A DNA stretch of 18,788 nt. Source: Candidatus Thorarchaeota archaeon (GTDB lineage Archaea; Asgardarchaeota; Thorarchaeia; Thorarchaeales; Thorarchaeaceae). Position numbers and translations under genes: made by a program. Below the pieces are notes generated by a model. That model did not search any database, had not been told where the DNA came from, and was given only the letters and a program-made list of their open reading frames with translations. The stretch lies in contig RDOC01000014.1 in NCBI GenBank assembly GCA_011364985.1, positions 1-18,788 on the forward strand, written 5' to 3'. The number at the start of each line of letters is the position of its first letter. Position 1 is the stretch's first letter. Positions 403 to 17,964 of this stretch are shown one piece after another.

Positions 403-1305
403 TTGAAGATAATCGACTCTCATGTTCATACTTGGACCCAACAAATCATTAGCAAGAAGGACATAGAGGCACGAAGAATTGCAGCTGAGCACTCCGGAAC
501 TGAACCACAGCTGAATTCGCCAGTTTTTGATCTGAGGAACGCAATGAAGAAAGCAGAAGTGAGTCACGCAGTGATTCTGCCCATTGACAGTGGGCTAAAC
601 CAGGACATGCCTTTGACCCTTCAGGAAAAGACTGACTATCATGTAGATGAAATCGAAGGAGACAAGACTCTTGTTACTTTTGTAGGGCTGGACCCCAGAA
701 GAGGAAAGGAGGGTCTCATTGAGTTGGAACGCGCCGTGAAAGAAAAGGGGTGCAGGGGCTGGAAGATGTATCCACCAAATGGGTTCTATCCTGACCAAGA
801 GGAGTTCTATCCGTACTACAACCTCTGTGTAGAACTTGGAGTGCCTGTTACGGTACACCAAGGGTTCACATCACGCTTCAAGTACGTGAAATATGCGAGG
901 CCGGTACATGTTGACAAGGTGGCTGTTGACTTTCCGGAATTGAAGATTATACTCGCTCACGTTGGCATCCCGTGGGTAAACGAGGCCCTCATGGTTGCAG
1001 CAAAAAATCCGAATGTGTCAGTAGACGTGTCAGGATGGCAGGTCTATGCGAAAACTCCACTCAAAATCTATCAAATGATAGCCGACGCGAAACTTGTCCA
1101 TGTATTTCCTAATCGTTTCCTGTGGGGAAGTGACTTCCCGCTTTTTGAAAATGATGTGACTTTACATGAGTGGGCCGAGTTCTTTCGCAATCTTCAGCTG
1201 CCACAGGAGATGATTGACCAAGGTTACAGACAGGTGAGCACTGAGGACATTGAACGGGTTATGTGGAAGAACGCTGCAAGATTGATGTTCGGTGAGAAAC
1301 AATGA
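403..1305 (+). CDS. Amidohydrolase family protein (Amidohydro_2, TIM-barrel metal-dependent hydrolase)
   Basis: IIDSHVH (HxH metal motif), GWKMYP, VPVTVHQG, IILAHVG and WGSDFP. TTG start preceded by GAGTGA. Confidence 0.9.
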   Translation: MKIIDSHVHTWTQQIISKKDIEARRIAAEHSGTEPQLNSPVFDLRNAMKKAEVSHAVILPIDSGLNQDMPLTLQEKTDYHVDEIEGDKTLVTFVGLDPRRGKEGLIELERAVKEKGCRGWKMYPPNGFYPDQEEFYPYYNLCVELGVPVTVHQGFTSRFKYVKYARPVHVDKVAVDFPELKIILAHVGIPWVNEALMVAAKNPNVSVDVSGWQVYAKTPLKIYQMIADAKLVHVFPNRFLWGSDFPLFENDVTLHEWAEFFRNLQLPQEMIDQGYRQVSTEDIERVMWKNAARLMFGEKQ

Positions 1306-1808
1306 CGAGCTTTGTTGTAGATGCAATGCTCGGGAAGGTAGCCCTCTGGTTGAGACTTGCTGGAAAGGACACCATCTATTCTCCCGATATTAATGACGAT
1401 GAACTGTTAGAGATTGCCAAGAATCAAAATCGCATCTTATTAACTTCGGATGCTGAGCTACACAATCGTGCTGAAGAAGCATGCTTAGAAACCATGTTAC
1501 TTCGAGGAACAGCAGACCAGCGTGTTGCAGCCGTGTTTCATCAATTCTCAATTAACCCCAAAATCGACCCATCAAAGTCACGTTGTTCGAAATGCAATGG
1601 AATTCTCACCGAGATTGATTCCAGTGACAAGGAAAGGATAAAGGATCTTGTCTTTGAGCAGACTTACAATCACTATGATCGATTTTGGCTGTGCAACGAA
1701 TGCAGAAGGGTCTTCTTTCAGGGTGGTCAATGGACCAACATTTCCAAGTACATGAAAAGGATAGAAAGGATGATTCAGATGCTAAAGGAGACTATTCAGC
1801 CTCTATGA
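1302..1808 (+). CDS. Mut7-C RNase domain protein (PIN-like domain plus C4 zinc ribbon)
   Basis: FVVDAMLGKVALWLRLAGKDT, DDELL, RILLTSD, then SRCSKCN...CNECRRVF. ATGA overlap with the upstream stop; GGTGA RBS. Confidence 0.9.
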   Translation: MTSFVVDAMLGKVALWLRLAGKDTIYSPDINDDELLEIAKNQNRILLTSDAELHNRAEEACLETMLLRGTADQRVAAVFHQFSINPKIDPSKSRCSKCNGILTEIDSSDKERIKDLVFEQTYNHYDRFWLCNECRRVFFQGGQWTNISKYMKRIERMIQMLKETIQPL

Positions 1809-2247
1809 CCTTGACATCAAACTCCATTGGTAGGCAGTCTGCTATAGTTCTGCTAAGATGGCAGTACTCCTGCATGAGCTCTGCGCATCTCTTTCCGGTC
1901 TCCAACTCGTCCTCTCCGACAATTACGGTACCGCTGACCTTCACGCCTGTGATTTTGTACCCGGACCCATCAAAGTCAGCTGTTGCAGCGCCTGAGAGTT
2001 CTAGGCTGATGAGTTCCAGTTCGAATCTTCTCTGAAAATCCAAGAATGTGTTGTTCAAGCAGGCTAGCAAGCTGGCTACAAAGAGCTCATCAGGGCAGAT
2101 TCCTTCACCTCTACCACCATATGTCTTGGGGGTGTCCAGAACGACTTTTCGCCCATTACTCACCGAACCAAGGCATCCTGTCTGACCATCCCAATTAGTA
2201 GTTGCTTGATACTCAATGTGCTCAGGGTACTTGGCCTTTAGCTTCAT
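1792..2247 (-). CDS. OsmC/Ohr family protein
   Basis: DTPKTYGGRGEGICPDELFVASLLAC and EYCHLSR contain the two conserved OsmC cysteines; GAGGT upstream of the ATG. Confidence 0.9.
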   Translation of the reverse strand: MKLKAKYPEHIEYQATTNWDGQTGCLGSVSNGRKVVLDTPKTYGGRGEGICPDELFVASLLACLNNTFLDFQRRFELELISLELSGAATADFDGSGYKITGVKVSGTVIVGEDELETGKRCAELMQEYCHLSRTIADCLPMEFDVKVIEAE

Positions 2248-2350
2248 CGCTCATAACCTCACACAACTGAGAATCTAGCCACGGATTAAGGATTGTGGTA
2301 CCATTTCTATTTCCATGTTGGCTAAGCACAAATGAGAATGTCAGGAAGTG

Positions 2351-2358
2351 ATTTAAAC
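2351..2358 (+). promoter_or_regulatory. Putative archaeal TATA box for the dehydrogenase gene
   Basis: ATTTAAAC lies about 35-40 nt upstream of the ATG at 2392. Confidence 0.3.
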
Positions 2359-2391
2359 CGACAGCACTTAGTTGCGGCGAGGCCTCAGTCC

Positions 2392-3435
2392 ATGAATCGT
2401 CGAATGAAGGCTGCGGTGTATCATAATGTTGGCGATGTTAGATACGAAGAAACCGACATTCCAGAGATTGGAGATGGAGAACTGCTCGTAAAGGTTGGTA
2501 CTGCACTAACCTGCGGAACGGATGTGAAGACCTACAAGAGAGGACACCCCGTTTTATTGAGTAGCCTTCCCACCTTGTTTGGTCATGAATATGCGGGGAC
2601 CATTGAAGAAGTGGGAAATAACGTTGAGGGCTTTGAGAAGGGAATGAGGGTTGTAGCCACAAACTCCGCTCCCTGCGGGACGTGTTTCTTTTGCAAGCGC
2701 GGTAGTCCTAATCTATGCCCTCAGCTCAAGTCATCTCTTGTGAATGGAGCCTTTGCGGAGTATATTCGCGTCCCGGCTCCGGTTGTGAAATGGAACACAC
2801 ATCAAATTCCAGACAGCCTGCGCTTCCGCGAGGCAGCTCTAACAGAGCCCTTGGCATGTGTTGTTCATGGGATTCAAGAAGCCGATATCAGACTCGGTGA
2901 TACAGTGGCGATCATTGGGGCTGGACCAATTGGACAGATGCTCATTATGCTGGCAAAGAAGAGCGGTGCATCTACGGTAATCGTGTCAGACTTTGCAGAA
3001 TTAAGGAGGAATACGGCAAAACGTGCGGGAGCTGACATTGTTGTTGACCCAGAAGCTGAGAATCCCATTGGGAGGGTGAAAGAAGAAACCTCTGGATACG
3101 GAGCCGACGTAGTAATCGAAGCAGTGGGACTTCCGACGACATGGGAACAGGCAGTAGATATGACAAGAGATGCAGGAACAACAATCCTCTTCGGGGGTGC
3201 AGCATCTGGTACAAAATTCGAGTTGGACACAGTTAGATTCCATTATGGTCAGCTCACAATAAAGGGGGTGTTTCACTTAACCCCCCGCCATGTTGGACAA
3301 GCCTTGAAGTTAATCATTGCAGGAGATATTGACCCTGACATTCTCATTTCACATGAGATGCCTCTTAAGAGGGTGACAGAGGCCCTTGAGATGATGGGCG
3401 CTGGCAAGAGTATGAAGGTTGCCATCAAGCCATAA
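2392..3435 (+). CDS. Zinc-dependent MDR dehydrogenase (L-iditol/threonine dehydrogenase-like)
   Basis: MKAAVY start region, catalytic Zn motifs TCGTD and GHE, structural Zn CGTCFFCKRGSPNLC, EPLAC, and Rossmann GAGPIG followed by an acidic VSD (suggests NAD). Start more likely 2392 or 2404 than 2332. Confidence 0.92.
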   Translation: MNRRMKAAVYHNVGDVRYEETDIPEIGDGELLVKVGTALTCGTDVKTYKRGHPVLLSSLPTLFGHEYAGTIEEVGNNVEGFEKGMRVVATNSAPCGTCFFCKRGSPNLCPQLKSSLVNGAFAEYIRVPAPVVKWNTHQIPDSLRFREAALTEPLACVVHGIQEADIRLGDTVAIIGAGPIGQMLIMLAKKSGASTVIVSDFAELRRNTAKRAGADIVVDPEAENPIGRVKEETSGYGADVVIEAVGLPTTWEQAVDMTRDAGTTILFGGAASGTKFELDTVRFHYGQLTIKGVFHLTPRHVGQALKLIIAGDIDPDILISHEMPLKRVTEALEMMGAGKSMKVAIKP

Positions 3436-3522
3436 TCAGAAGCAGAGTTGCTCTTGATGCATGAAAGAAATGAAGACTCGCTAGCTGGCAAGGGCCGCTC
3501 ATGGAGAGAAACTAGCAGGATA

Positions 3523-3942
3523 ATGCGCAAAATGAGGCCCTTGAGAAATAACGAGAGAACCCTAATCCAAACAATCGAGTCTCTTGACGACAAGTATCAA
3601 GGGCTTGTGGTAATTGTAGAGGGACGACGTGACGAGGCAATATTGAAAAATCTTGGACTAAGGAGTCCAATCATTAAAACACAGGCTGGAATAAGTAGAC
3701 TGGAACTCGTTGAGAATATTGTTGCTGAAGTGGGGTCCTCTGGCCAAGTTCTGATTCTTACGGACTATGATGTAGAAGGAGAAGAGATACGAGCTGCACT
3801 TGAGCAGGAATTAGAGATCAGGCACATTAGGATTCTACGAGGAGTACGGAATAGGATTCAAAGGCTCATGGGAAACTGGCGGTGCATAGAAGAGATGGTG
3901 TCACTCTTCAAAAGAAAGGACTCTCCGGAGCCGGCCTCTTAG
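3523..3942 (+). CDS. Stand-alone TOPRIM domain protein (archaeal UPF0292 / RNase M5-like)
   Basis: VIVEGRRDE and LILTDYDVEGEE give the TOPRIM E and DxD motifs. ATG at 3523 follows AGCAGGA; the ORF track starts at 3448. Confidence 0.85.
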   Translation: MRKMRPLRNNERTLIQTIESLDDKYQGLVVIVEGRRDEAILKNLGLRSPIIKTQAGISRLELVENIVAEVGSSGQVLILTDYDVEGEEIRAALEQELEIRHIRILRGVRNRIQRLMGNWRCIEEMVSLFKRKDSPEPAS

Positions 3943-3969
3943 AAGCCCCGGAAACTAGGCCATTGTCAC

Positions 3970-5001
3970 TCATACTGTGACTTGGCTCCCACAATTCGGA
4001 CAGATATACTTCCCAGCAGGTATGTCTGAACCGCACACTCTGCAAGTACGAGCCTTCCGCACTCGAATGGAATCGACTATGTCACCAACTTGAGGTTCGA
4101 GTATGAATTTGTTATCCCGATAGGTTATTTTGAACTCCTTCGGGTTCCCGGCTAACTCAAGCAACTCCATTGGCATTGGGAGACGATATTTGTCGTCGAG
4201 ACGCAGAATTCTTGTTGTATCAAGCGTGTCGAGGTCAATACCAGTCTGATGAAAACCAGAGATAACACCGTCCCGAATCTCCACTGTCACATCTGCCTTT
4301 GAGGCAACCTGCTGACTGTGAGTGACAATGAAGAAGGAGGTTCCAAGGGACTCATTGAGCTCCCGGAATAGATCGAGAATACGCTCGCCGGTTTCCGGGT
4401 CCAGATCTCCAGTGGGCTCGTCGCAGAGAACGAGTCCCTTCCCTTCATGGTCAAAGAGATTAACCAACGCGCTAGCGATGGCCACACGGGAGCGCTCACC
4501 GCCAGAGAGGGTAGTTGCCTTGTTTCTCTTCCGCTCCTCCAGACCAACTATCTTGATCAACTTGTCTACACGTTCCTTCCGAACACTCCGGGGGACTCCG
4601 GCGATTCGTGCGGCCAGCTCTACATTCTGCCAAGCGTTCAGGTGAGGCAAAAGGTTGTTAATCTGAAACACAAAGCCCATGAAGGAACGACGTGCCTCTG
4701 TGAGCACTCGTTCACTCAGTCTGGTGATATCTTTTCTAAGATTAGCCCAGTACACCTTTCCAACGGTTGCCTTGGTGATACCACCAAGTACGTTGATTAG
4801 CGTGGTCTTACCGGATCCCGAGGGGCCAACGACGGCCATTATCTTCCCTTCTAGTATCTGAAGGGAAATACCACTAAGGGCAACTACCTCGAGTTCGTTA
4901 GTCTTGTAGATCTTGTAGCAGTTGTGAAGACTCGCCACGATGTCATCGGGCATCTCTCCAAAGATGTCGAGTTCTTCTGTGGTTTGAGTAGTCGTTACCA
5001 T
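3970..5001 (-). CDS. ABC ATPase (LolD/MacB/FtsE family) with C-terminal AbrB/MraZ-like segment and C4 zinc ribbon
   Basis: Walker A GPSGSGKT, Q-loop GFVFQ, LSGGE, LCDEPTGDLD and VTHS. Tail reads LRLDDKYRLPMPMELL...FILEP then CRVC-x10-CPNC. Confidence 0.92.
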   Translation of the reverse strand: MVTTTQTTEELDIFGEMPDDIVASLHNCYKIYKTNELEVVALSGISLQILEGKIMAVVGPSGSGKTTLINVLGGITKATVGKVYWANLRKDITRLSERVLTEARRSFMGFVFQINNLLPHLNAWQNVELAARIAGVPRSVRKERVDKLIKIVGLEERKRNKATTLSGGERSRVAIASALVNLFDHEGKGLVLCDEPTGDLDPETGERILDLFRELNESLGTSFFIVTHSQQVASKADVTVEIRDGVISGFHQTGIDLDTLDTTRILRLDDKYRLPMPMELLELAGNPKEFKITYRDNKFILEPQVGDIVDSIRVRKARTCRVCGSDIPAGKYICPNCGSQVTV

Positions 5002-5011
5002 TTTCTTTGCC

Positions 5012-7918
5012 TCACAAGTTTCTCAATACTTGTGCTGGGTCAACTGACCCAGCTCTGCGAGCTGGTATGTAGCACGCAATTACCATCACCATGCCCTCAA
5101 GGGTCAGTGTCAGTACCATTACTGTGACCGGAAGCGCAATGGTCTCTGCAAGAATGGGAAATACCATGGAGATTCCCAATGTAAGAAACGTCATGACATA
5201 TCCGAACACGATTCCTAGAATGAAGCTGATTGCCAAGGCAGCCAGAATGAGCCCTGCAAACTCACCAAATACCATGGATACAACCTGCTTCTTTGTGCCG
5301 CCAAGAGCTCTGAATATGGCGTACTCAGACTGACGTTCACTGACTGCCGAGCTTAAGAACAAACCGATTGCCGAAAGCCCCATTGCTGCGCAAAGAATGT
5401 AGCTGATCGTGGTAAGACCTTGGGTCCCTGTCAGGAAGGGGCTTATTCCTGGCAAATCTAAGAGGCTAACATTCTCCACAGTATATATCTCTGCGTTCTT
5501 ATCTGATCGAATCACTTCCACAAGAGGCTGGACCTCTTCATAAGATGTTATGTCAACAAGGTAGACCTCTACATCAGATATGGCCGTGACATTTGAGAGG
5601 TATTCAAGGTTGACAAGTGCAAAGCCGCGTAGTGATACTTGGAAACCGAAATAGGCTCCAAAAGGTGTACCCCCAAGATCAGCCGCTGCCGCCATGCCAA
5701 AGCCTGGTGCGCTCTTCATAATTCCGACGATTTCAAAATCGACAAAGATTGTGGAGGTGCTTGTAGCAACGAGCACTGTGACTTGGTCGCCGACGCCTCG
5801 GCCCCAGATCTCTGAATAGAACTGGCTGATTACAATTCCATTCTCTGTGCCGTTCAGACTGGTAAGAACTGACTGCGGCGTCCCTGACACGAAACTACTA
5901 GAATCGAAGTCGGCAACATTCAGATATACCGTGGGTCTTATTCCTTTCAGCCAAAAGATCTCCGTACCAACAGCTGCTGTGGTATGCACAACTGGAGAAG
6001 CCGCCACGACACCCGGGAAGTCCTCGATTGTATCAAAGAAGCTCAATGGGGTGCCATATGTCTCGACCCTCATATCTGCACCAAGTGAATATCGCATTTC
6101 ACGATCTAGAGTTGCCTCGAAGCTTTGAGTTTGAATCAGCACCATAGTAGTTGTGGTCAGAGTAAGCGTGAGAATGACCAAAAGGGGTATGAACTGCCCC
6201 TTGCGCCTTCGAAGGCTCTGCTGCAAATAGAGAGATTTTTCTCCAATAATCGGTGTGAACTTCCCAGAGGCATGTGACGTTGCAATACGCATTGCTCGTG
6301 AGCCCAGATACGCTGATGCGAATAGACCAACGGTAGCAACAAGGAGCTGGAGAAGTGCAATCTCATTGACTGGAGGGATCAATATGGGCATAGCTATCAA
6401 GACTGACACGATCAATAGGAGACCCAAGGGATACACAAGTGGATTGGTTTCCTCAGGCAGTTCGTACTCGTTTCGGCTTGTGGGCTGACCGACTTCTGAA
6501 ACATCTATGCGTCTTGCCACATGCAGCAAGTATGCAGAAGGCAGATACATGGAGATAGCAGCAGCCAATATGACCGCCTGAATTGGCACTACTGTGCTCT
6601 CAAGGAATAGCTGAAAGGTCTCCATATTAAAGGTCAATAGTCCTGTGGATGCGCCCATCAGTGGAGCCATCACTAGTGATAGAAAGAAACCTACAATGAA
6701 TCCAATTGCGGCCAGTACGATGGATTCCCATATTACAGCTGCAAAGATCTGATTGAAAGAGGCGCCCTTGGCCCTGAGGGCGCTAATCTCCCCTCTTCGA
6801 TAGGAAATTGAGGTTTCCGATGTGAATATGGTGAGCATAAGGCTCATGATCATAACTGGTAAAGCCAAGATGATTAGTACCTGACTTCGGACATAGGTTG
6901 CGATGTGAGCTTGGAGTTCATCAATGGTTGTAAGGCCCGTCACCCGAAGCTCAGGGAACATCTCTTCTATCCGGACTTTTAGAGAGGCCAGATTATAAGT
7001 CACCGTTGTCAAACCGGCGGCCTTCAGTTCCTCGGCTGAGGCACGCAAAAGACCAACGGGCGAAAAATAGCCGCGTGTAGAAACATCATTTATGACAGCA
7101 GGGTCGAGTTGGTCTTGCAACATGATTACTGAGTCGTTCATGCCTAGAACTGTGTCCGGCCTGCCTAGGGGATCCCAGTTCAGACGAGACCTTGAAGTGA
7201 ACAGCTGACCAAGCATCGACACACGAACTACCTTGAATATGCCAACTACTCGAAGTCCTTTGAGTCCGATTCGGCCCAGTTCTTCAGGAGTGGCCCATTC
7301 GTCATCTTTTGGACGCTGTTTTGCGCCATAGCGGAGAATATCGAGGCTAATCACGCTGCCAATGTCAATCGTCACATCGTGCACGACTGCAGCGGATTCC
7401 ACAAAGTATTCTGAAACAATGACTTCACCTGGGTCCAATCGAAGTTCGCCTCTCCACTCAAGCTCAGTGGAAAAAGCATCAAGCATCTCATTGTTTCCAA
7501 GTATGATGCGCCCGTCCTTGATTCCTTCGCGATAGTTCAGATATCCTATATTATACAGTGTCCAATCATCCCAATCACCTTGAAGGATACATACCGATGA
7601 TGGCACTACATGCGCGTACTCAATGAAAGGACTAGCCAATGCAAAATCGCGCGCCTCTACCAGAGAGGAGTAATCTGTCAGAGAGGTCTGAACACGCAGA
7701 TTGATTTGATAGGCATTCTCTTCGAAGTACTCATCGACTGCAAGCGATGTTCCTGTTCCGGTCCAGATGAACACCGTTGTTGGGATGGAAACGCTGACCG
7801 CAAGGATAAGAGCAATTCCAATGTTGCGGACCTTATGATTCCAGAGAGATGTCATAGCGTATGACGGAGGCCACCAAATGCTTCCCTTCAGCATTTCATG
7901 TTGTACCACTTCTTTCAC
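5012..7918 (-). CDS. Large FtsX/MacB-type ABC permease with two FtsX repeats (about 968 aa)
   Basis: Two FtsX motifs (RRGEISALRAKGAS, RQSEYAIFRALGGT), multiple TM helices, two large extracytoplasmic domains, C-terminal PARRAGSVDPAQVLR. True start may be GTG 7909 (after GAGGTGA) or ATG 7894. Confidence 0.92.
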   Translation of the reverse strand: MKEVVQHEMLKGSIWWPPSYAMTSLWNHKVRNIGIALILAVSVSIPTTVFIWTGTGTSLAVDEYFEENAYQINLRVQTSLTDYSSLVEARDFALASPFIEYAHVVPSSVCILQGDWDDWTLYNIGYLNYREGIKDGRIILGNNEMLDAFSTELEWRGELRLDPGEVIVSEYFVESAAVVHDVTIDIGSVISLDILRYGAKQRPKDDEWATPEELGRIGLKGLRVVGIFKVVRVSMLGQLFTSRSRLNWDPLGRPDTVLGMNDSVIMLQDQLDPAVINDVSTRGYFSPVGLLRASAEELKAAGLTTVTYNLASLKVRIEEMFPELRVTGLTTIDELQAHIATYVRSQVLIILALPVMIMSLMLTIFTSETSISYRRGEISALRAKGASFNQIFAAVIWESIVLAAIGFIVGFFLSLVMAPLMGASTGLLTFNMETFQLFLESTVVPIQAVILAAAISMYLPSAYLLHVARRIDVSEVGQPTSRNEYELPEETNPLVYPLGLLLIVSVLIAMPILIPPVNEIALLQLLVATVGLFASAYLGSRAMRIATSHASGKFTPIIGEKSLYLQQSLRRRKGQFIPLLVILTLTLTTTTMVLIQTQSFEATLDREMRYSLGADMRVETYGTPLSFFDTIEDFPGVVAASPVVHTTAAVGTEIFWLKGIRPTVYLNVADFDSSSFVSGTPQSVLTSLNGTENGIVISQFYSEIWGRGVGDQVTVLVATSTSTIFVDFEIVGIMKSAPGFGMAAAADLGGTPFGAYFGFQVSLRGFALVNLEYLSNVTAISDVEVYLVDITSYEEVQPLVEVIRSDKNAEIYTVENVSLLDLPGISPFLTGTQGLTTISYILCAAMGLSAIGLFLSSAVSERQSEYAIFRALGGTKKQVVSMVFGEFAGLILAALAISFILGIVFGYVMTFLTLGISMVFPILAETIALPVTVMVLTLTLEGMVMVIACYIPARRAGSVDPAQVLRNL

Positions 7919-7919
7919 C

Positions 7920-10829
7920 TCATAAGTTCCTCAACACGATTGCAGGGTCAGTTCGACCTGCTTCTCTTGCAGGAAGGTATGCCCCGATTATCATTGCGAC
8001 CATTTCTACGCCAAGTACAATCATCAAGAACTCCACTGGAATTGTTATTGTTGCTTCTAACGTTCTTGAGAATGGACTCATCTGAAATAGCAAGAACCCA
8101 TTGATGTAGCCAAATACTGTACCAAGAACAAGGCTTACTGCTAAGGAGGCAAACACAACACCAGTGAACTCAGAAAACACCATACCGACTACTTGTCTTT
8201 TGGAGCCTCCTAGTGCTCGAATAATCGCATATTCTTTTCGTCGCTCTCGCACGACCGAGCCCAAGAAGATTGAGAGAGCAAACATGCTCATTATTAGTGT
8301 CATGACAAACCCGATTGAGAAAAGGCCTTCAATGGTATTCAGAAATTGAGCAGTAGCATAGTTGACTGCTTTCAGGTCAAAGGTGTCAGATGTCCAGACA
8401 TACGTTCCAGCCATGGAGGTGAGATTTGTTTGAAGTGCGATTCGATCCACGTCGTCCTCAAGTGATGCCATGAATAGGTCCGTTTCAGACTTGACAAGCT
8501 CCTCTGTGACAAAGTCCAGATTGACAAGGGCAAAACCGGAATACCCCGATTGAAAGCCGAAGCCGGCACCCGTCTGAGACGGAGGAATATCACCTATCCA
8601 CGCATAGCCGAAGCCCGGTGCACTATATACAAGACCGGTCACATTGAAGATCATCTCTTTAGTCACCAAGAATCCGCTGACCTCCATTCGCACAGTATCA
8701 CCTATGGTTTTGTTCCATCGTTCAGCATGATACCGACTCAGGATAATCCCATTCTCCATATTGGCCAGATTCGTTAGTACCTCGGTTGCATTTTCCTCAT
8801 AGAAGCTAGTATGATCGAAATGCCCGATTTCAGAATAGATTAGAGCATTAAGACCTGTCACTGTTATCTCATCAGTCCCTACTGTGCCTCTCGCCCGATA
8901 CACGGGCGTTACGTTTCTTACCTCATCGTATTCAAGAAGCGTTTCATTATAGCTCAAGGGCATCGAATCGAATATGATACGAAGGTCAACGCCAACCGCA
9001 TAGTCCACCTCACGTTCAAGATCGGCTCTAAGACTCTCTGCTTGAACAGAGAACGCGATTGTTGAGGAAATGGTCAAGGCAAGAATCAACATTAATGGGA
9101 TGATCCTGCCCCGTCTCATTCGCAAATATCCTGCTGCAATCCTATTCTTCTCCCCAAATGCAAAGGACAGGTGAGAGGAGATGCTTGCTAGACCAACACG
9201 CGAAACACGCGAGCCGTTATAAGCAATGAAGAACCATGCGGCCGTTCCTAGACCAAGCGTTAGGAGAAGCATAAGGGGATTGTTTGGTAGATAGATTGCA
9301 GCAGCAACGACAAGCATGAGCAGCGTGATCGAGGCCCCAAGAGTGAATCCATAGGAGGCATCCTTTGGATTAACATCTTCAGGCTTCTCCTCCACAGTGG
9401 CACCAATCTCTGCCAATGATGCCTTTCTTGCAAGATAGAGAATAAAGAACACAGGAGGAACGATGCACAACAACACTGCGGTTAGAAGCGTATCAAGGCG
9501 AACAACAGAGTTGAGCAGGTAGAACTGGTAGATTGTCCAGTCGAAGTGCATAAAGCTCTCGGTTGCAGGTATCAAAGCTGCAAACACAGCCGCCAACCCT
9601 GTTCCAATGACAAGAGCTGGTATCGTTAGAAGAAGAGTCTCCCAGAGGAAGACCATATTGATTTGGCTTGAGCTTGCCCCTTTGGACCGAAGAACTCCTA
9701 CCTCTATGATTCGTGGAGCCATAAAGGAGTCTGCTGCGAACACAGAAAGGATTAGAGCAAGGAAGAAGATGGGCAGGTTGAGCATCGAATATGATACCGA
9801 ACTCAAGTAGGAGTCGACGGTCCATTGTAAAACAAAGATCATGTCATATCCCTCGGTATTGACATTAAACTGTTCCTCAACCCTGGTCGAGAGAACGAAC
9901 ATATGCTCGGACATGTCTTCTGCTCCTGCACCTATCAATGCAGAGCTGGAAGCGCGAACAAGGATGCTTGCTAGAAAGAACCCATCAGGCTCAACATAAT
10001 TGCGCGATACAGAAGTATCAAGGACAATGACCGCGTCGCGTATGCCTAAAACTGGAAATCGCGTGTTTGTGTAATTCCAGTTTCGGCGCATCATTGATTG
10101 CATTCCTCTCTCAGCGAGGGAATAGTAGTTTGCCATGTCATAGATACCGGCTATTTCGAGCTGGCTCAGGGTTTGACGCCCAAGAAGTGCCAATTCGCGA
10201 CCATCTGGATACGTTGAATTCGCTTCACCGATGTCTCTGGCTAGAACCTCAAGATCAAAGGTTGAGCCAAGAGTGAGATTGAGGCCGAAAAGATCATATG
10301 TGTAAGCCAAGAATTGAGCAGACACAAGAGCCTGACCCTCTTCAAGGAGTAGACTGCCTTCGACCTCAAGCTCGACTTGCACTCTCTCAAGAAAATCGTT
10401 AGACGCAAAGATGACTCTACAGTCCTTAATGCCAGCCTCGTATAGTCGACCGCCAATATCGTATACGAAATCATCAGGAAGATATGACCCGTTGAACAAC
10501 CCTATGGTGGAGTTCAAGCGGTAAGTCTCTTCCACGAAAGGTTGGACATCAAGATACTGCTGGGCCTGGGTCCCATCATTGTAGTAGCCGTCCAGAGTTT
10601 CAACCAACAACTGGAATGAGCTGTCCTCAAAGAATCTGTCGGTAGCTATTTTGACTCCAGTATCGGCCCAGATGATGTTAGATGTCAACAGGCTAATACC
10701 TAGCCCAAGAGTGAGTACCAGACTCAAAGCCCGAAAAGGATTGGCTCTCATTGAACTCAGAGCGTATGACAGCGAATAGATGCGACTTCCTTTGGTTGAG
10801 GAAACATTGCGGTCTTTCATTGCTGCCAT
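7920..10829 (-). CDS. Large FtsX/MacB-type ABC permease with two FtsX repeats (about 970 aa), paralog of the downstream permease
   Basis: IEVGVLRSKGAS, RRKEYAIIRALGGS and PAREAGRTDPAIVLR. ATG 10829 follows GGAGTGA; the ORF track starts at GTG 10838. Confidence 0.92.
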   Translation of the reverse strand: MAAMKDRNVSSTKGSRIYSLSYALSSMRANPFRALSLVLTLGLGISLLTSNIIWADTGVKIATDRFFEDSSFQLLVETLDGYYNDGTQAQQYLDVQPFVEETYRLNSTIGLFNGSYLPDDFVYDIGGRLYEAGIKDCRVIFASNDFLERVQVELEVEGSLLLEEGQALVSAQFLAYTYDLFGLNLTLGSTFDLEVLARDIGEANSTYPDGRELALLGRQTLSQLEIAGIYDMANYYSLAERGMQSMMRRNWNYTNTRFPVLGIRDAVIVLDTSVSRNYVEPDGFFLASILVRASSSALIGAGAEDMSEHMFVLSTRVEEQFNVNTEGYDMIFVLQWTVDSYLSSVSYSMLNLPIFFLALILSVFAADSFMAPRIIEVGVLRSKGASSSQINMVFLWETLLLTIPALVIGTGLAAVFAALIPATESFMHFDWTIYQFYLLNSVVRLDTLLTAVLLCIVPPVFFILYLARKASLAEIGATVEEKPEDVNPKDASYGFTLGASITLLMLVVAAAIYLPNNPLMLLLTLGLGTAAWFFIAYNGSRVSRVGLASISSHLSFAFGEKNRIAAGYLRMRRGRIIPLMLILALTISSTIAFSVQAESLRADLEREVDYAVGVDLRIIFDSMPLSYNETLLEYDEVRNVTPVYRARGTVGTDEITVTGLNALIYSEIGHFDHTSFYEENATEVLTNLANMENGIILSRYHAERWNKTIGDTVRMEVSGFLVTKEMIFNVTGLVYSAPGFGYAWIGDIPPSQTGAGFGFQSGYSGFALVNLDFVTEELVKSETDLFMASLEDDVDRIALQTNLTSMAGTYVWTSDTFDLKAVNYATAQFLNTIEGLFSIGFVMTLIMSMFALSIFLGSVVRERRKEYAIIRALGGSKRQVVGMVFSEFTGVVFASLAVSLVLGTVFGYINGFLLFQMSPFSRTLEATITIPVEFLMIVLGVEMVAMIIGAYLPAREAGRTDPAIVLRNL

Positions 10830-10834
10830 ATGGA

Positions 10835-11617
10835 TCACTCCTGAGGCGCAGTTCCCTCCTCCTCAGCCTTGAACTTCTCACGCGCGACTTCGATATCAAC
10901 GCCGCTTGGTTTGAAGAAGTCTGCTACGAGCTCTTCCACGAGGATACCATCACGTAGAAGAAGTATCTTGTCAGTCATTTTGGCAACTTCGGGATCATGG
11001 GTGACAACGATTATTGCCCGATTATTTTCTTTTGCCAGACGCTTCATTAGCATGATTATCTCGCCCCCGATTACGTGGTCCAAATCTCCTGTGGGTTCGT
11101 CACACAGAAGAACTGCAGGACTATTCGCGAGGGCTCTTGCAAGAGCGACCCGTGACCGCATTCCTCCAGAGAGCTCATGGGGCATATGTTGTGCTCTATG
11201 GTCAATGCCAACCAAAGAGAGTAGCTCTATTGCCTTCTCCCGTCGTTTTGTCGTGGGAATGTTGTCCAGAAGCATGGGGACCTCAACATTCTCAAGGGCG
11301 GTAAAGATCGGAAGGAGATATTGATCTTGAAACATCATGCCCACTTTATGCCTCCGAATCGCAGAGATACCTTCATCATCGAGATTAGTTATCTCTAGAC
11401 CGTCAACAAAGATTCTCCCAGAGGTTGGAGTATCAAGACCTCCAATCAGATTCAGAAGCGTCGTCTTTCCAGAGCCCGATGCTCCGACAATGGCAACAAA
11501 CTCACCTTTTTTCACTGAGAGATTTGTGCCTTGCAGAACACGAATTATCCGAGAGCCATCTTGGAATTCTCTGTGGACATCTATGCATTCTACGGCCAGA
11601 TGATCATTGGCATTCAT
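10835..11617 (-). CDS. ABC ATPase (LolD/MacB/FtsE family)
   Basis: GASGSGKT, GMMFQ, PHELSGGM, LLCDEPTGDLD and VTHD. ATG 11617 follows GAGTGA; TTG 11623 is the alternative start. Confidence 0.95.
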   Translation of the reverse strand: MNANDHLAVECIDVHREFQDGSRIIRVLQGTNLSVKKGEFVAIVGASGSGKTTLLNLIGGLDTPTSGRIFVDGLEITNLDDEGISAIRRHKVGMMFQDQYLLPIFTALENVEVPMLLDNIPTTKRREKAIELLSLVGIDHRAQHMPHELSGGMRSRVALARALANSPAVLLCDEPTGDLDHVIGGEIIMLMKRLAKENNRAIIVVTHDPEVAKMTDKILLLRDGILVEELVADFFKPSGVDIEVAREKFKAEEEGTAPQE

Positions 11618-11640
11618 TGACAAGTCACTCAGATTCTGAC

Positions 11641-11649
11641 TTTAAAAAA
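11641..11649 (-). promoter_or_regulatory. Putative TATA box for the ABC operon
   Basis: The minus strand reads TTTTTTAAA about 25-30 nt upstream of the ATPase start. Confidence 0.45.
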
Positions 11650-11704
11650 CCAATTTAAGCCAAGTGGATTGAGCAGCCAGCGAAAATGTCATCCGAACAG
11701 CAGC

Positions 11705-11739
11705 TGTGATCTCAAGAGTCACATTTTTGTGACACAAAA
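11705..11739. promoter_or_regulatory. Interlocked inverted repeats (candidate operator) in the divergent ABC/mobB intergenic region
   Basis: TGTGA-N9-TCACA (11705-11723), GTCACA-TTTT-TGTGAC (11718-11733) and TTTTGTG-A-CACAAAA (11725-11739). Confidence 0.5.
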
Positions 11740-11771
11740 GGGAGAATATTACTCCTTGAGTGTGAAAGAAT

Positions 11772-12254
11772 ATGAGATTGTTTGCAGTTTCGGGATATTC
11801 TGGAACAGGAAAAACAACTCTTGTTGAAGCCTTGATTCAAGAACTCACAAAACGGGGATACTCAGTTGCCACTGTCAAGAGCACCAAGGAAACACTCAGT
11901 GATGTCGAGGGCTCTGACACATGGAGGCATCGTGTGGCTGGAGCTGCAGCAACAGCACTTCTGAGCCCTCAGGCAGCTGTGACATGGCAGTATAAGCTTC
12001 TTGGTCTAAAGGATGTCCTTCGGGATTGGAAATACGACTTTGTACTTATTGAGGGAATGAAGGATGTGGATTTGCCCAAATTCTGGTGTGTGAGAGATAT
12101 ATCGAAAGACGAGATGAGATCTAGGAATGTGAAGGCATTGATCACTCATCCAGACTCGTCAATAGAATGGCAAAATGATGAAGTTGAAGTCCTGACATCA
12201 GATGATATCTCAATCTTGGCAGATATCATAGAGCAGGAAGCAGCCCCAATCTAG
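11772..12254 (+). CDS. mobB: Molybdopterin-guanine dinucleotide biosynthesis protein B
   Basis: FAVSGYSGTGKTTL, RGYSVATVK, GSDTWRHRVAGA and DFVLIEGMK match MobB signatures. Confidence 0.88.
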   Translation: MRLFAVSGYSGTGKTTLVEALIQELTKRGYSVATVKSTKETLSDVEGSDTWRHRVAGAAATALLSPQAAVTWQYKLLGLKDVLRDWKYDFVLIEGMKDVDLPKFWCVRDISKDEMRSRNVKALITHPDSSIEWQNDEVEVLTSDDISILADIIEQEAAPI

Positions 12255-12273
12255 GCCAAGACCTGCATCCAAA

Positions 12274-12291
12274 TGAAAAAGCTCTTTTTCA
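12274..12291. promoter_or_regulatory. Palindrome with perfect 8-bp arms at the expected promoter position of the OGG1-like gene
   Basis: TGAAAAAG-CT-CTTTTTCA ends 22 nt before the ATG at 12314. Confidence 0.45.
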
Positions 12292-12313
12292 GTCAATCCC
12301 AGAAAAGGCCCTG

Positions 12314-13168
12314 ATGAAGACTCTAAAGGCCAAGCAATTTGACCTGGAAGCCACTTTGAACAGCGGACAGACATTCAACTGGATTAGGGAAGGAAAGGGC
12401 TACATTTGCAGTGATAATGGTCAGGTGGTCTATGTTGAACAAAACGGAAACAAACTCCTCTACGAAAGTTCTCACCGACAGGCAAACCTGAAAGAATCCT
12501 TCCGACTTGATGATCCACTCCTAGAGATTCAACAAGAGATTGCAAAGGACCAATTCATATGTGATTCCATCCGATTTTCACCAGACCTTCGTATCGTCAG
12601 AAATCCGTTCTACCCCTGTTTAATTTCCTTTATCTGCTCTATTCGAAAGAATATACCCACCATCAGAGGCCTGATGCAGTCCTTTCGTGAAATGTATGGG
12701 CCGCAATATGAATTCAGAGGAAGAACGTACTATGGGTTTCCAGCCCCCGAACAAGTTGCTCAAGCGTCGGTGCAGGAACTCAGAAGTCTTGGACTTGGCT
12801 GGCGTGCGAAGTTCGTTTCTGAAGCAACAGCGGCAATTGTTAAAGAAGAGGTCGTTGAGAAGGAGCTTGTTAAGATGAAGTACGAAGAAGCACACAGGAC
12901 TCTGAAGACTTTACACGGTGTCGGAAACAAGGTGGCGGATTGCATCTGCCTTCTTTCACTTGGTTTTCTAGAAGCATTTCCAATTGACATCTGGATTGAA
13001 CGTGCCATTCAGGAGCGTTATGATATCTTCACTAAAACAGGGAAGTCATACAGGAAGAAATCTGAGGCAGCTAGAAGTTATTTTGGAAGATATGCGGGCT
13101 ACGCTCAGGAATACCTCTTTAACTATACAAGACTAAGGAGAATCACGACTCTGTCATCCTCTACTTGA
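12314..13168 (+). CDS. ogg1: 8-oxoguanine DNA glycosylase/AP lyase, OGG1 family (OGG_N plus HhH-GPD)
   Basis: LEATLNSGQTFNW, LISFICS, GLGWRA, HhH LHGVGNKVADC (catalytic Lys), FPIDIW (catalytic Asp) and YAGYAQEYLF. Confidence 0.9.
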   Translation: MKTLKAKQFDLEATLNSGQTFNWIREGKGYICSDNGQVVYVEQNGNKLLYESSHRQANLKESFRLDDPLLEIQQEIAKDQFICDSIRFSPDLRIVRNPFYPCLISFICSIRKNIPTIRGLMQSFREMYGPQYEFRGRTYYGFPAPEQVAQASVQELRSLGLGWRAKFVSEATAAIVKEEVVEKELVKMKYEEAHRTLKTLHGVGNKVADCICLLSLGFLEAFPIDIWIERAIQERYDIFTKTGKSYRKKSEAARSYFGRYAGYAQEYLFNYTRLRRITTLSSST

Positions 13169-14342
13169 GAGACTGACGCTTCCGTTTTTTCCTTGTATAC
13201 CAACCATGATCAACAATGCCCTTTGATAACTCCCATGTCCGTGTCTGATAGAACGCCAAGGGATGGAGAACATACTCACAGAGAGGATCAAAGACTTCTC
13301 CGAGGGCAACAGGACAAAGGCTATTTCCCTGCATCTTCTTGCAGCCCGGCGGTGTATAACCCTCTCCTGCGGACTTCGAGGAGATATGACGGACCTGATA
13401 CTCTGCCAATGTCTGCACGAAGTCGGGAGCGGCCTTGAATACTCCCATAACCTCTCTGATATCCATGCCGATCTTCAGAAGGAACGCTGCCAAAGCAAAT
13501 CGAGCCTCATGTGACACATTCTTCCCAGCCAAGGAGTCTTCATGTATCTGCCCGATACACGGGGGAAATGCAGTTGTTGTGTCGCCAGACAGCTTCACCG
13601 GTTCCGTCTTGCGTATCTTCCCCCGAATCTCGGTCTCGATGCGTTCAACTGCTTCTGTGAGCCGCCGAGGGAGTGTGGGAACCTCTATTCTGCTATCAAG
13701 AATAAGCTGTTTGAACTTGCCAGAGATCAATCTTGCCAGCTCTGACTTCCTCACCGGCACCCAGCCAGAGTCGAGATGCCTGTTGATCAATTTCCAGTTC
13801 CATGCATGAAACAAAGGTGCTACCTCCAAGAAGTCCTCAAATCGTATTCGAAAATCAAAGCTTCGCAGAAGAAGTGGCATCTTTGTACGTTGTGCCTCGG
13901 TGCCTGTGGATTTCACAGCCCATCCAAAAGCAGACTCACAGAGATGTATGAGATAGCTGTCGGATTCATTCGCAAGATACTTGTTGACGGATTTTGATTC
14001 CGCTTCAGCCTGATACTCCTTTAATCTAGGTTCGTCGATTCGTTCAACAATGAGCCGAGCAGCTTGATAGACGAGAATTGAAGCAGGATTATTATGGTCG
14101 GGCAACTGAATCTCATCCTGAACTATGGAGGAATAGACTCGTTCTTCAGCTTGCCGGACAATATCGTGGTTCATTGGATCCTCAAGCTGATCGATGAGTG
14201 ACTTGACATCCCGTGTAACTTTGAAGAGGGCTTCTCTTGCTTCTGAAGAGAATGGATATCGAAGTTGTTGAATACTCAAAGCCACGTATTTCGCCTCAGT
14301 AGTACTCGGACTGCGCTGTTTCGACTTGGGGTGAACATCCAT
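13161..14342 (-). CDS. priL: DNA primase large (regulatory) subunit
   Basis: N-terminal RYPF, WKLINRHLDSGWV, and the Fe-S domain FPPCI...HEARFALAAFL...YQVRHI...YTPPGCKKMQGNSLC...C...HPL with four Cys. Confidence 0.93.
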   Translation of the reverse strand: MDVHPKSKQRSPSTTEAKYVALSIQQLRYPFSSEAREALFKVTRDVKSLIDQLEDPMNHDIVRQAEERVYSSIVQDEIQLPDHNNPASILVYQAARLIVERIDEPRLKEYQAEAESKSVNKYLANESDSYLIHLCESAFGWAVKSTGTEAQRTKMPLLLRSFDFRIRFEDFLEVAPLFHAWNWKLINRHLDSGWVPVRKSELARLISGKFKQLILDSRIEVPTLPRRLTEAVERIETEIRGKIRKTEPVKLSGDTTTAFPPCIGQIHEDSLAGKNVSHEARFALAAFLLKIGMDIREVMGVFKAAPDFVQTLAEYQVRHISSKSAGEGYTPPGCKKMQGNSLCPVALGEVFDPLCEYVLHPLAFYQTRTWELSKGIVDHGWYTRKKRKRQSLK

Positions 14343-14365
14343 CCAAATAAAGTGCGCTCAAGTCT

Positions 14366-14590
14366 TCACCACCGATTCTCGAAACTTGGCCGATAGTCAT
14401 CCACATTCCGACGGTAGAACTTCTTCCCACACACAGAGCATTCAAACATTTCGAGTCCCTTCATTCTCGACCAGAGCGGGAAGATGCGGAATATGCGCTC
14501 GCCTTGGCATCTGGGACATCTGAGTGGAGAGTTGTTGTTCTTTGAACCACGGGAACTGAAGGTCACGACCATCAAATCATAGTTATGCAT
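14366..14590 (-). CDS. Small C4 zinc-ribbon protein
   Basis: CPRC...CSVCGKKF. AAAGGAG lies just upstream of ATG 14590, and the ORF fills the gap between the thioredoxin gene and priL in the same orientation. Confidence 0.7.
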   Translation of the reverse strand: MHNYDLMVVTFSSRGSKNNNSPLRCPRCQGERIFRIFPLWSRMKGLEMFECSVCGKKFYRRNVDDYRPSFENRW

Positions 14591-14636
14591 TTGCTCCTTT
14601 AACTTCTCTCATTACCAATATTCAGAGATGGATCCA

Positions 14637-15176
14637 TCAGTGCCGCCCAAGAATGAAGTCAGCCCGAATCAAGAGATTCATGAACTCTCCGAGAGATTGT
14701 CGGAGGATTTCGGGGTCGCTATAGAGCTTCCTTAGATGGTTCTTCCGCCCTTCTAAGGAGGGGTCGATCTTTTCATTTATGAGCTTGTACGCTGCATTTG
14801 GCCTCTCGACCCATCGACAAAGCTCTTGAAGGTCACTGCTAAGGAATAAGACAACCGGCGTCTTTCTCTTACCATTTACTTTGAAGTTCTGATGGTAATG
14901 GACGTGTTTATTGCTGTCAAGTATTCTGAGTTGAATCTTTGGAGCCGTTGCAGCCATCCTCGCAAGAACAGGTAGTGTGCCCGAAGTATCATCACACGAG
15001 TCGGTTCCCAAAACGAGGATCCTAATCTCATTCTGGAGTTCCTTCAATGTGGCCTCGTCTTCTTCGGTGAGCATCAGGTCGGTATAACGCGCCTTCATTA
15101 GCTCAACATTTTCTCTTGCCGTTGACAGGAACTTCTTGTATTCCACTGCACTTACCCATTCTGTAGTTTCAGCCAT
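14637..15176 (-). CDS. Thioredoxin-fold protein (Thioredoxin_9-like) with atypical CDDT active site
   Basis: ILVLGTDSCDDTSGTLPVL, NGKRKTPVVLFL (cis-Pro loop) and WVERP match this family, whose usual motif is WCxDC. Confidence 0.8.
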   Translation of the reverse strand: MAETTEWVSAVEYKKFLSTARENVELMKARYTDLMLTEEDEATLKELQNEIRILVLGTDSCDDTSGTLPVLARMAATAPKIQLRILDSNKHVHYHQNFKVNGKRKTPVVLFLSSDLQELCRWVERPNAAYKLINEKIDPSLEGRKNHLRKLYSDPEILRQSLGEFMNLLIRADFILGRH

Positions 15177-15318
15177 CTATTACCAACTCAAATCCGAAAG
15201 AATTCCGCTGGAAAGCCCAACAGGGAATATTTCGATGCGAATGGATAAAAGGATATCTCGGCAGGCAATGTGCTTTTGTTCCTAAGGATTTAACAGAAGT
15301 GGGCTGGCAACTGCATGC

Positions 15319-17926: not shown

Positions 17927-17964
17927 CCGACACACACAATATGTGCCATTAGTCTTTAGATGCC

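What the first reader, a model, noticed from the sequence alone, without database searches (positions are those of the whole stretch)
3970..4230. ABC ATPase with a C-terminal AbrB/MraZ-like swapped hairpin and a zinc ribbon
Seen: after the NBD comes ILRLDDKYRLPMPMELLELAGNPKEFKITYRDNKFILEP, then CRVCGSDIPAGKYICPNCG. The partner ATPase lacks this tail. Known: the pattern lDxxxRlxlPxel...lxlxP characterises AbrB/SpoVT/MraZ DNA-binding and dimerisation folds. I recall similar AbrB-like tails on some bacterial LolD-like ATPases, but without the Zn ribbon. Inference: this could be a transporter subunit that doubles as a transcription regulator or sensor, or uses the hairpin to dimerise two transporter complexes.
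Basis: partly seen in the sequence, partly recalled or inferred. Interest (0 to 1): 0.72.

Follow-up and report, generated by a model that had tools for sequence, protein, structure and literature searches.

The report
ABC ATPase with AbrB-like zinc-ribbon tail
One of the two motor subunits of an Asgard-archaeal (Thorarchaeota) MacB/YbbP-type membrane ABC machine really does end in a divergent AbrB-type half-domain plus a four-cysteine zinc ribbon; this fusion is old, is kept in several Asgard families and appears unstudied, but what the tail does (pairing or regulating the motors seems likelier than binding DNA) is still only inferred.

Summary
Window 3970-5001 (-) encodes a 343-aa MacB/LolD-type ABC ATPase. 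Residues 264-303 are a single AbrB/SpoVT/MraZ-like beta-beta-alpha-beta-beta unit and residues 319-340 are a CxxC-x10-CxxC zinc ribbon.

- **No Pfam AbrB model fires, but three other tests agree.** The profile-profile comparison with 24 true PF04014 domains gives 90% probability and score 29.1, against 8.2 +/- 1.9 for 200 shuffles. An AF2 model of the tail has AbrB-family proteins as its best matches, by Foldseek and as the top eight of an independent search of 48,161 PDB chains. The tail profile also picks up stand-alone PF04014 proteins in Asgard genomes.
- **The tail is old and conserved.** It is intact in all 81 complete relatives collected. It is strongly present in Thorarchaeota (24/26 genomes sampled) and four or five other Asgard families.
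- **The operon partners are constant.** The tailed gene always goes with a tail-less ATPase paralogue (NBD tree split 100/99) and 10-TM double-FtsX (YbbP-like) permeases.
- **Function is inferred only.** One half-barrel per tailed subunit suggests pairing between subunits or a regulatory role (about 0.4). DNA binding is possible but weakly supported.

This scan has already noted the same architecture on other DNA (other Asgard genomes, Marine Group II). I class it as a new variant of a known kind, of moderate interest.

The parts
3970..5001 (-). Gene for the tailed ABC ATPase (343 aa, P0001); last gene of the four-gene operon
   Evidence: ORF and translation; PF00005 and LolD/MacB models
4252..4929 (-). 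Nucleotide-binding domain, residues 25-250. Walker A GPSGSGKT, signature LSGGE, Walker B LVLCDEPT and H-loop THS are all intact
   Evidence: Read directly from the sequence; PDB relatives MacB/LolD/MJ0796/YbbA, E 1e-36 to 1e-45
4213..4251 (-). Conserved acidic connector, residues 251-263 (H-x2-G-I-D-L-x2-L-D-x-S/T), leading into invariant R264
   Evidence: Alignments A3 and A6; column counts and mean net charge of about -2
4093..4212 (-). AbrB/SpoVT/MraZ-like half-barrel unit, residues 264-303, with invariant D269, R273 and P277
   Evidence: hhalign 90.4%, score 29.1, against a shuffle maximum of 15.2; Foldseek and VIA top hits are AbrB, SpoVT, MazE, Sso7c4, MraZ and VapB; own-genome hit of the core profile at 4093-4239
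4048..4092 (-). Variable linker, residues 304-318; poorly conserved and modelled with low confidence
   Evidence: Alignment A6; pLDDT 60-69
3982..4047 (-). C4 zinc ribbon, residues 319-340 (CRVCG-x10-CPNCG)
   Evidence: PF13240 E 8.5e-5 and 22.7 bits, below the 25-bit cut-off here, with relatives down to E 8.4e-8; four Cys invariant in 81 sequences; small ribbon and RanBP2/NZF-type matches
5012..7918 (-). Permease 2 (968 aa): two FtsX repeats, about 10 hydrophobic segments and two large external domains (YbbP/BceB-like layout)
   Evidence: Pfam FtsX twice; hydropathy; LolE and YtrF are the only PDB sequence hits
7920..10838 (-). Permease 1 (972 aa), a paralogue with the same layout
   Evidence: Pfam FtsX twice and weak MacB_PCD; hydropathy
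10835..11623 (-). Tail-less partner ATPase (262 aa, TTG start); first gene of the operon
   Evidence: Translation; PF00005 E 1e-35; separate clade from the tailed NBDs, 100/99
11624..11771 (.). Divergent intergenic region between the operon and mobB. A TTTTAAA box about 20 nt upstream of the TTG start is the only element shared with related loci
   Evidence: Sequence; alignment with four syntenic Thorarchaeota loci

Best explanation
**What it is (confidence about 0.9).** This is the second motor subunit of an Asgard type VII (MacB/LolCDE/YbbAP-like) ABC machine. Its complete, apparently catalytically competent NBD is extended by an acidic connector, one divergent AbrB/SpoVT/MraZ-type beta-beta-alpha-beta-beta unit, a variable linker and a C4 zinc ribbon. 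The fusion belongs to one of two anciently diverged ATPase paralogues that are encoded together with 10-TM double-FtsX permeases.

**How it probably works (inferred, about 0.4).** An AbrB unit is only half of a swapped-hairpin barrel, so the tail needs a second half. The simplest source is the tail of another tailed ATPase. Pairing the tails would then do one of two things:
- tie two tailed NBDs together under one permease;
- or, if each pseudo-symmetric permease carries one plain and one tailed NBD as the conserved gene pairing suggests, link two transporter complexes (in Thorarchaeota, possibly the complexes of the two paralogous permeases).

The tail would then act as a cytoplasmic clamp or regulatory module on the ATPase cycle, comparable in role, not in fold, to the C-terminal domains of MalK, ModC, MetN or Wzt. 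The zinc ribbon would be a rigid interaction knob.

**Shown:** sequence, conservation, fold assignment, operon partners and the paralogue split. **Inferred:** stoichiometry, dimerisation and regulatory effect.
For: - **Fold.**
  - hhalign of the core profile (A4) against 24 bona fide PF04014 domains (A5): probability 90.4, E 1.4e-6, score 29.1 over 40 columns.
  - 200 column shuffles give mean 8.2, sd 1.9, maximum 15.2; the reversed profile gives 10.1.
  - The AF2 tail model from 81 sequences has pLDDT 76.6 and 82-93 across the core.
  - Foldseek PDB top ranks are AbrB-N, SpoVT, MazE and Sso7c4, with rmsd 1.6-1.8 A over 44-47 columns.
  - Many of the better viral-library matches are MraZ, AbrB and SpoVT proteins.
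- **Reciprocity.** In the search of 151 Asgard genomes, the weak hits of the core profile (E 1e-4 to 1e-7, positions 11-49) fall on short ORFs. Two of these coincide with places that PF04014 hit (G038:C1:5758xx and G018:C30:49xx-51xx).
- **Conservation.** All 81 complete relatives keep the core and the ribbon. There are strong hits in families f1 24/26, f4 13/13, f11 15/19, f22 4/7, f19 1/1 and f27 1/1.
- **Partnership.** The order is plain ATPase, permease(s), tailed ATPase in the window and L033, L034 and L036-L039, with variants in L032, L035 and L040. A tree of the NBDs alone separates tailed from plain with 100/99 support.
- **Stoichiometry.** In YbbAP one double-FtsX permease binds two NBDs (PMC12646458). 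The permeases here have the same layout of about 10 TM segments.
- **Half-barrel argument.** AbrB-family barrels are formed by two units (established structural knowledge of AbrB-N, MazE and MraZ).
Against: - No Pfam or NCBIfam AbrB/MazE/MraZ model reaches even E 10 on any of 23 tails. The assignment therefore rests on profile-profile comparison and on a predicted model.
- If the NBD pair is heterodimeric, only one half-barrel exists per transporter, so pairing needs a higher-order assembly that no data here show.
- Nothing here measures an effect of the tail on ATPase activity.
- Invariant R273 corresponds to a DNA-contacting arginine of AbrB, which the pairing model does not need.
Confidence: 0.45

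Rival explanations
1. Membrane-tethered nucleic-acid binder. Paired tails form an AbrB-type DNA-binding (or RNA-binding) barrel, helped by the ribbon, so the transporter directly regulates transcription (for example of its own operon) according to its ATPase state.
For: Most characterised members of the fold superfamily bind DNA (AbrB, SpoVT, MazE, VapB, MraZ, Sso7c4), and these are the top fold matches. R273 is invariant and sits at the position of AbrB R15. The zinc-ribbon segment is mildly basic, mean about +2. Stand-alone MazE_antitoxin plus Zn_Ribbon_1 proteins exist as a cluster.
Against: The core has a mean net charge of about 0, against about +3 for antitoxin-type PF04014 domains from the same phylum. 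The helix has no conserved basic residues where AbrB has R23 and R24, and the connector is acidic. The region upstream of the operon, including the palindromes of this window, is not conserved in four syntenic Thorarchaeota loci apart from a TATA-like box. The protein is anchored to a membrane complex.
Confidence: 0.18
2. Docking site for another protein. The single half-barrel completes its fold with a free AbrB/VapB-type protein, or the ribbon binds a partner. The transporter would thereby sequester or release a soluble regulator or toxin-antitoxin component, in the manner of MalK with MalT.
For: Asgard genomes carry many free PF04014 proteins (38 of 41 genomes). The tail profile cross-matches them. 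A heterodimeric NBD pair would leave the half-barrel unpaired.
Against: No small AbrB-type gene is next to the tailed ATPase in any of the ten loci examined. The own genome shows only one PF04014 match, in a 337-aa frame (the genome is 74% complete).
Confidence: 0.15
3. The tail is not AbrB-like. It would be a TOBE/OB-type or other known NBD regulatory domain, or an unstructured leftover of a fused small gene with no function.
For: No Pfam AbrB hit. The full-length AF2 model with a shallow alignment was poor.
Against: No TOBE/OB protein appears among the fold matches shown; the top ranks are AbrB-family proteins, with zinc fingers and a few unrelated chains lower down. The profile-profile score is far outside the shuffle range. 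Ten invariant positions are kept across lineages whose tails are about 30% identical, which is not how a leftover behaves.
Confidence: 0.04

Closest known systems
AbrB/SpoVT/MazE/VapB/MraZ swapped-hairpin domains (Pfam PF04014, PF02381; structures 1YFB/1Z0R AbrB-N, 2W1T SpoVT, 1MVF/2MRN MazE, 5ITJ Sso7c4, 1N0E MraZ)
   Same: The size is about 45 residues and the order of elements is beta-beta-alpha-beta-beta. The D-x3-R-x3-P motif and the hydrophobic pattern are shared. The profile-profile probability is 90%, and these are the best fold matches in three libraries.
   Different: It lies at the C-terminus of a membrane-associated ABC ATPase rather than at the N-terminus of a soluble regulator or antitoxin. 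It lacks the G-D turn after the helix and the basic helix residues, has about zero net charge, and falls below every Pfam model threshold. Dimerisation and DNA binding are untested.
E. coli YbbAP(-TesA) type VII ABC transporter (PDB 9GE6-9GE8; PMC12646458), and BceAB
   Same: It has a fused double-FtsX permease with 10 TM segments, two large external domains and two coupling helices that bind two MacB/LolD-type NBDs. YbbA is among the solved relatives of this NBD.
   Different: YbbAP uses two copies of one tail-less ATPase. Here there are two diverged ATPase genes, one of them tailed, and Thorarchaeota have two paralogous permeases. The external partner and the substrate are unknown.
C-terminal regulatory domains of ABC ATPases (MalK and ModC TOBE-type, MetN NIL/C2, Wzt carbohydrate-binding domain)
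   Same: An extra domain follows the NBD and, in those systems, pairs beneath the NBD dimer and regulates the transporter or selects its substrate (established knowledge). This is the role proposed here.
   Different: The fold is different (AbrB-like plus zinc ribbon). The transporter class is type VII rather than an importer or an O-antigen exporter. Only one of the two ATPase paralogues carries the domain.
Stand-alone AbrB plus zinc-ribbon small proteins (ESM Atlas cluster with PF04014 99% and PF13240 42%, mostly phage)
   Same: It has the same two-module order in about 77 residues and matches model residues 9-80 with TM 0.48/0.56. It is a possible source of the fused tail.
   Different: These are free proteins that are recognised by Pfam. 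No sequence-level link to the tail was shown.

Membership tests
AbrB/MazE/SpoVT (Pfam PF04014) / MraZ (PF02381) | Match to the curated Pfam model at or above its gathering score | tested here: not met
   PF04014 and PF02381 are not listed for this tail at E up to 10, nor among the 25 families that most of the 23 tails match. PF04014 in the own genome hits only another gene. I therefore do not file it as a PF04014 member.
AbrB-like swapped-hairpin superfamily | Detectable homology to true members by profile-profile comparison | tested here: met
   hhalign probability 90.4, E 1.4e-6, score 29.1, against a shuffle maximum of 15.2. Reciprocal weak hits fall on stand-alone PF04014 ORFs.
AbrB-like swapped-hairpin superfamily | Beta-beta-alpha-beta-beta unit of about 45 residues that superposes on solved members | tested here: met
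   On a predicted model only (pLDDT 82-93 in the core): rmsd 1.6-1.8 A over 43-47 residues to SpoVT, AbrB-N and Sso7c4. The first hairpin is not called as strand in the monomer model.
AbrB-like swapped-hairpin superfamily | Two units interdigitate into one barrel (homodimer or tandem repeat) | tested here: inconclusive
   There is only one unit per chain.
AbrB-like swapped-hairpin superfamily | DNA binding through basic loop and helix residues | not testable with these tools
   By sequence only: the equivalent of R15 is invariant, the equivalents of R23 and R24 are absent, and net charge is about 0.
Zinc ribbon (Pfam PF13240 Zn_Ribbon_1 type) | Two CxxC knuckles about 10 residues apart, and a model match | tested here: met
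   CxxC-x10-CxxC is invariant in 81 sequences. This protein scores 22.7 bits (cut-off 25), while relatives reach E 8.4e-8 and 21 of 23 tails match. Metal binding itself is not testable here.
Type VII ABC transporter (MacB/LolCDE/FtsEX/YbbAP/BceAB) | MacB/LolD-type NBD with intact catalytic motifs, encoded with FtsX-domain permease(s) that have large external domains | tested here: met
   NBD; permeases, 2 x FtsX each, about 10 TM segments.
TOBE/OB-type NBD regulatory domains (MalK, ModC) | OB-like beta-barrel after the NBD | tested here: inconclusive
   No such protein is among the matches of the tail model; all leading matches are AbrB-like. A missing match does not strictly exclude the fold.

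The most novel reading that the evidence does not exclude
The tail is a working nucleic-acid-binding or regulator-capturing module, so this Asgard type VII ABC machine reports its mechanical or ATPase state directly to gene expression. It would be a one-polypeptide 'transporter-regulator', a mechanism not described for this transporter class.
Probability: 0.15. Interest if true: 0.8.

Novelty: new variant of a known kind. Interest (0 to 1): 0.5.

Why it matters
Type VII ABC machines (MacB, LolCDE, FtsEX, BceAB, YbbAP) are studied intensively in bacteria, while their archaeal relatives are uncharacterised. A survey of Asgard transporters says the same of the Asgard Macrolide Exporter homologues (PMC7997004).

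An anciently fixed pair of different motors, one carrying an AbrB-type half-domain and a zinc ribbon, points to a cytoplasmic control or assembly step that the bacterial models do not have. It also shows that the AbrB fold is used outside soluble DNA-binding regulators.

The tail is missed by Pfam, so these proteins are annotated only as 'ABC transporter ATP-binding protein'. A dedicated profile would annotate the 81 relatives collected here, which stand for about ten clusters at 50% identity.

The practical value is modest until function is measured.

Tried and rejected
- **Full-length AF2 model.** With the 20-sequence Thorarchaeota alignment it was unusable (pLDDT 46).
- **Tail-tail complex prediction.** Two copies with alignment A6 gave a score of 0.40 against a mark of 0.42. 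The tool's verdict is 'no answer', so I use it neither for nor against dimerisation.
- **phmmer of the tail against PDB sequences.** Only insignificant zinc-ribbon hits.
- **ESM Atlas search by features.** No usable hit.
- **The search for related loci with the core alignment.** I could therefore not verify the leads to similar tails on ABC ATPases of Methanobacteriota and Thermoplasmatota or Marine Group II (earlier scan notes).
- **Conserved operator upstream of the operon.** None found beyond a TATA-like box.
- **Literature.** Three full-text searches found no paper on an AbrB-like tail on an ABC ATPase.
- **Bacterial origin of P0203.** I considered and rejected it. The locus is syntenic with that of P0225, from another assembly for which no source gives a name, and carries a ProRS with the PF09180 C-terminal domain, which I take to be the archaeal/eukaryotic type.

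Full report
**1. What is in the sequence**

The window carries a tightly packed minus-strand operon:
- a 262-aa ATPase at 10835-11623;
- a 972-aa permease at 7920-10838;
- a 968-aa permease at 5012-7918;
- a 343-aa ATPase at 3970-5001.

The finding's coordinates, 3970-4230, are residues 258-343 of the last protein plus its stop codon.

Residues 25-250 form a complete ABC nucleotide-binding domain with intact Walker A, Q-loop, signature, Walker B-Glu and H-loop. The support is PF00005 at E 9e-25 and the LolD and MacB NCBIfam models at E 1e-52 to 1e-55. The nearest solved sequences are MacB NBD, MJ0796, LolD, YtrE and YbbA.

Each permease has two FtsX repeats, about ten hydrophobic segments and two external domains of roughly 250-300 residues. 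This is the layout of the fused permease YbbP, which binds two NBDs through two coupling helices (PMC12646458).

Source names of close homologues place the window in Thorarchaeota, an Asgard lineage.

**2. Is the tail AbrB-like?**

Curated models say nothing. No AbrB, MazE or MraZ model of Pfam or NCBIfam is reported even at E 10 for this tail, and none is among the families that most of 23 related tails match. In the own genome, PF04014 hits only another gene.

I therefore tested the claim in three other ways.

- **Profile against profile.**
  - I aligned the core (residues 255-303) of 23 relatives (A4).
  - Separately I aligned 24 bona fide PF04014 domains taken from Asgard genomes (A5).
  - hhalign gives probability 90.4%, E 1.4e-6 and score 29.1 over 40 columns. 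The hairpin, the helix and the last two strands are in register.
  - Two hundred column shuffles of the query give 8.2 +/- 1.9 with a maximum of 15.2, and the reversed profile gives 10.1.
- **Fold.**
  - An AF2 model of the tail built on 81 sequences has pLDDT 76.6, and 82-93 in the core.
  - Foldseek against the PDB ranks AbrB-N, SpoVT, MazE and Sso7c4 first, with rmsd 1.6-1.8 A over 44-47 columns. E-values are weak, as expected for so small a unit.
  - Its first eight are SpoVT (4.9), Sso7c4 (4.8), AbrB-N (4.6), MazE (4.2), MraZ (3.8) and three VapB proteins. Most of the remainder are small zinc fingers aligned to residues 53-93 of the model.
  - In the viral library, many of the better matches are MraZ, AbrB and SpoVT proteins.
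- **Reciprocity.** I searched the core profile against 151 Asgard genomes. Its weak hits (E 1e-4 to 1e-7, profile positions 11-49) fall on short ORFs. Two of them are the same places that PF04014 hit.

The invariant D269-R273-P277 has the spacing of AbrB's D11-R15-P19, which I know from the AbrB sequence.

I conclude that the unit is a divergent member of the AbrB-like superfamily that lies outside the reach of the Pfam model.

The zinc ribbon is straightforward. CxxC-x10-CxxC is invariant in all 81 sequences. PF13240 scores 22.7 bits here, under its 25-bit cut-off, but reaches E 8.4e-8 in relatives.

**3. Distribution and partners**

An exhaustive profile search of 1.84 billion representative proteins found the whole tail only in about ten 50%-identity clusters. 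All are ABC ATPases of 322-349 aa, or fragments of them. The other hits were zinc-ribbon repeats.

A word-indexed search with the core alone returned 66 proteins. The 57 of more than 260 aa are ABC ATPases; the shorter ones are partial genes on short contigs. Where a source names them, they are Thorarchaeota, Heimdallarchaeota, Hodarchaeales, Promethearchaeota or 'Asgard group'. The single 'Zixibacteria' label sits on a locus syntenic with that of P0225, a tailed ATPase from another assembly that no source names.

Among the 151 Asgard genomes, strong hits occur in these families:

| Family | Genomes with a strong hit |
|---|---|
| f1 (the window's family) | 24/26 |
| f4 | 13/13 |
| f11 | 15/19 |
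| f22 | 4/7 |
| f19 | 1/1 |
| f27 | 1/1 |

Many other families have none. There is usually one copy per genome.

Gene order is conserved:
- **Thorarchaeota** (window, L036-L039): plain ATPase, permease, permease, tailed ATPase.
- **L033 and L034** (L033's protein is labelled Heimdallarchaeota; no source names L034's): plain ATPase, one permease, tailed ATPase.
- **L032** (protein labelled Promethearchaeota): the plain and tailed ATPase genes are divergent, next to one permease.
- **L035 and L040**: an Opp cluster lies between the tailed ATPase and the plain ATPase plus permease.

A maximum-likelihood tree of the NBDs, with the tails cut off, separates 12 tailed from 9 plain ATPases with 100/99 support. 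The two paralogues, and with them the tail, therefore predate the split of these lineages.

A structure-based Atlas search adds two leads that I could not verify. One is a cluster of stand-alone AbrB plus zinc-ribbon proteins, mostly from phages. The other is ABC ATPases with a similar tail in Methanobacteriota and Thermoplasmatota.

Earlier notes of this scan report the same architecture in other Thorarchaeota and in Marine Group II. The scan has thus found this before on other DNA.

**4. How it may work**

An AbrB unit is half of a barrel, and each tailed ATPase has one unit. One double-FtsX permease binds two NBDs, and a plain and a tailed ATPase gene are conserved together. The most economical assembly is therefore one plain and one tailed NBD per permease, which leaves one unpaired half-barrel per complex.

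That half-barrel could be completed in three ways:
- by the tail of a second complex, or of a second tailed NBD if the pair is homodimeric;
- by a free AbrB-type protein;
- not at all.

I favour tail-tail pairing acting as a clamp or regulatory module (about 0.4), because of the strong conservation of the hydrophobic strand pattern and because no partner gene is encoded nearby.

The evidence on DNA binding is mixed:
- **For.** R273, the equivalent of AbrB R15, is invariant, and most characterised proteins with this fold bind DNA.
- **Against.**
  - The core has a mean net charge of about 0, against about +3 for antitoxin-type PF04014 domains of the same phylum.
  - The helix lacks conserved basic residues, and the connector is acidic.
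  - The upstream region proposed as the EMSA target shares only a TATA-like box with four syntenic loci.

No paper on such a tail was found. A survey of Asgard transporters states that their Macrolide Exporter family homologues are uncharacterised (PMC7997004).

**5. Verdict**

- Interest is moderate (0.5). It would rise if the tail proved to couple transport to gene regulation.

Noticed in passing
L036:10040-11857 and L038:11032-12864 (absent at the equivalent place in the window, 3943-3969): In two Thorarchaeota relatives a protein of about 605 aa lies directly downstream of the tailed ATPase on the same strand. It has an N-terminal membrane anchor, an AXE1/alpha-beta-hydrolase domain and a multi-TM C-terminus. 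This recalls the hydrolase partner TesA of YbbAP. It was not found in the window's genome, which is 74% complete.
   Followed up: partly
window 11690-11745: Interlocked TGTG/CACA inverted repeats lie between the operon and the divergent mobB gene. They are not conserved in the equivalent intergenic regions of L036-L039, where only a TTAAAA/TTTAAA box is shared.
   Followed up: partly
window 403-18780, compared with L036-L039: A long syntenic block is shared among Thorarchaeota: Amidohydro_2, Mut7-C, OsmC, Zn-ADH, a small Toprim protein, the ABC operon, MobB, and in L037 also OGG and PriL. The operon therefore sits in a stable housekeeping neighbourhood, not in an island.
   Followed up: partly
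L035:7001-14981 and L040/L041:8001-16975: In one Asgard lineage an Opp-type peptide ABC importer cluster (two permeases, two ATPases) lies between the tailed ATPase gene and the plain ATPase plus double-FtsX permease genes. The tailed gene is then transcribed apart from its presumed partners.
   Followed up: no
The genome search survey, genome G134 (same genus as the window, 92% complete): No match to the tail core was found in the only other genome of the window's genus, although 24 of 26 genomes of the family have one. This is either an assembly gap or a recent loss.
   Followed up: no
window 17288-17926 (+) and 14366-14590 (-): ORFs of 212 aa and 74 aa have no Pfam family at E 0.001.
   Followed up: no
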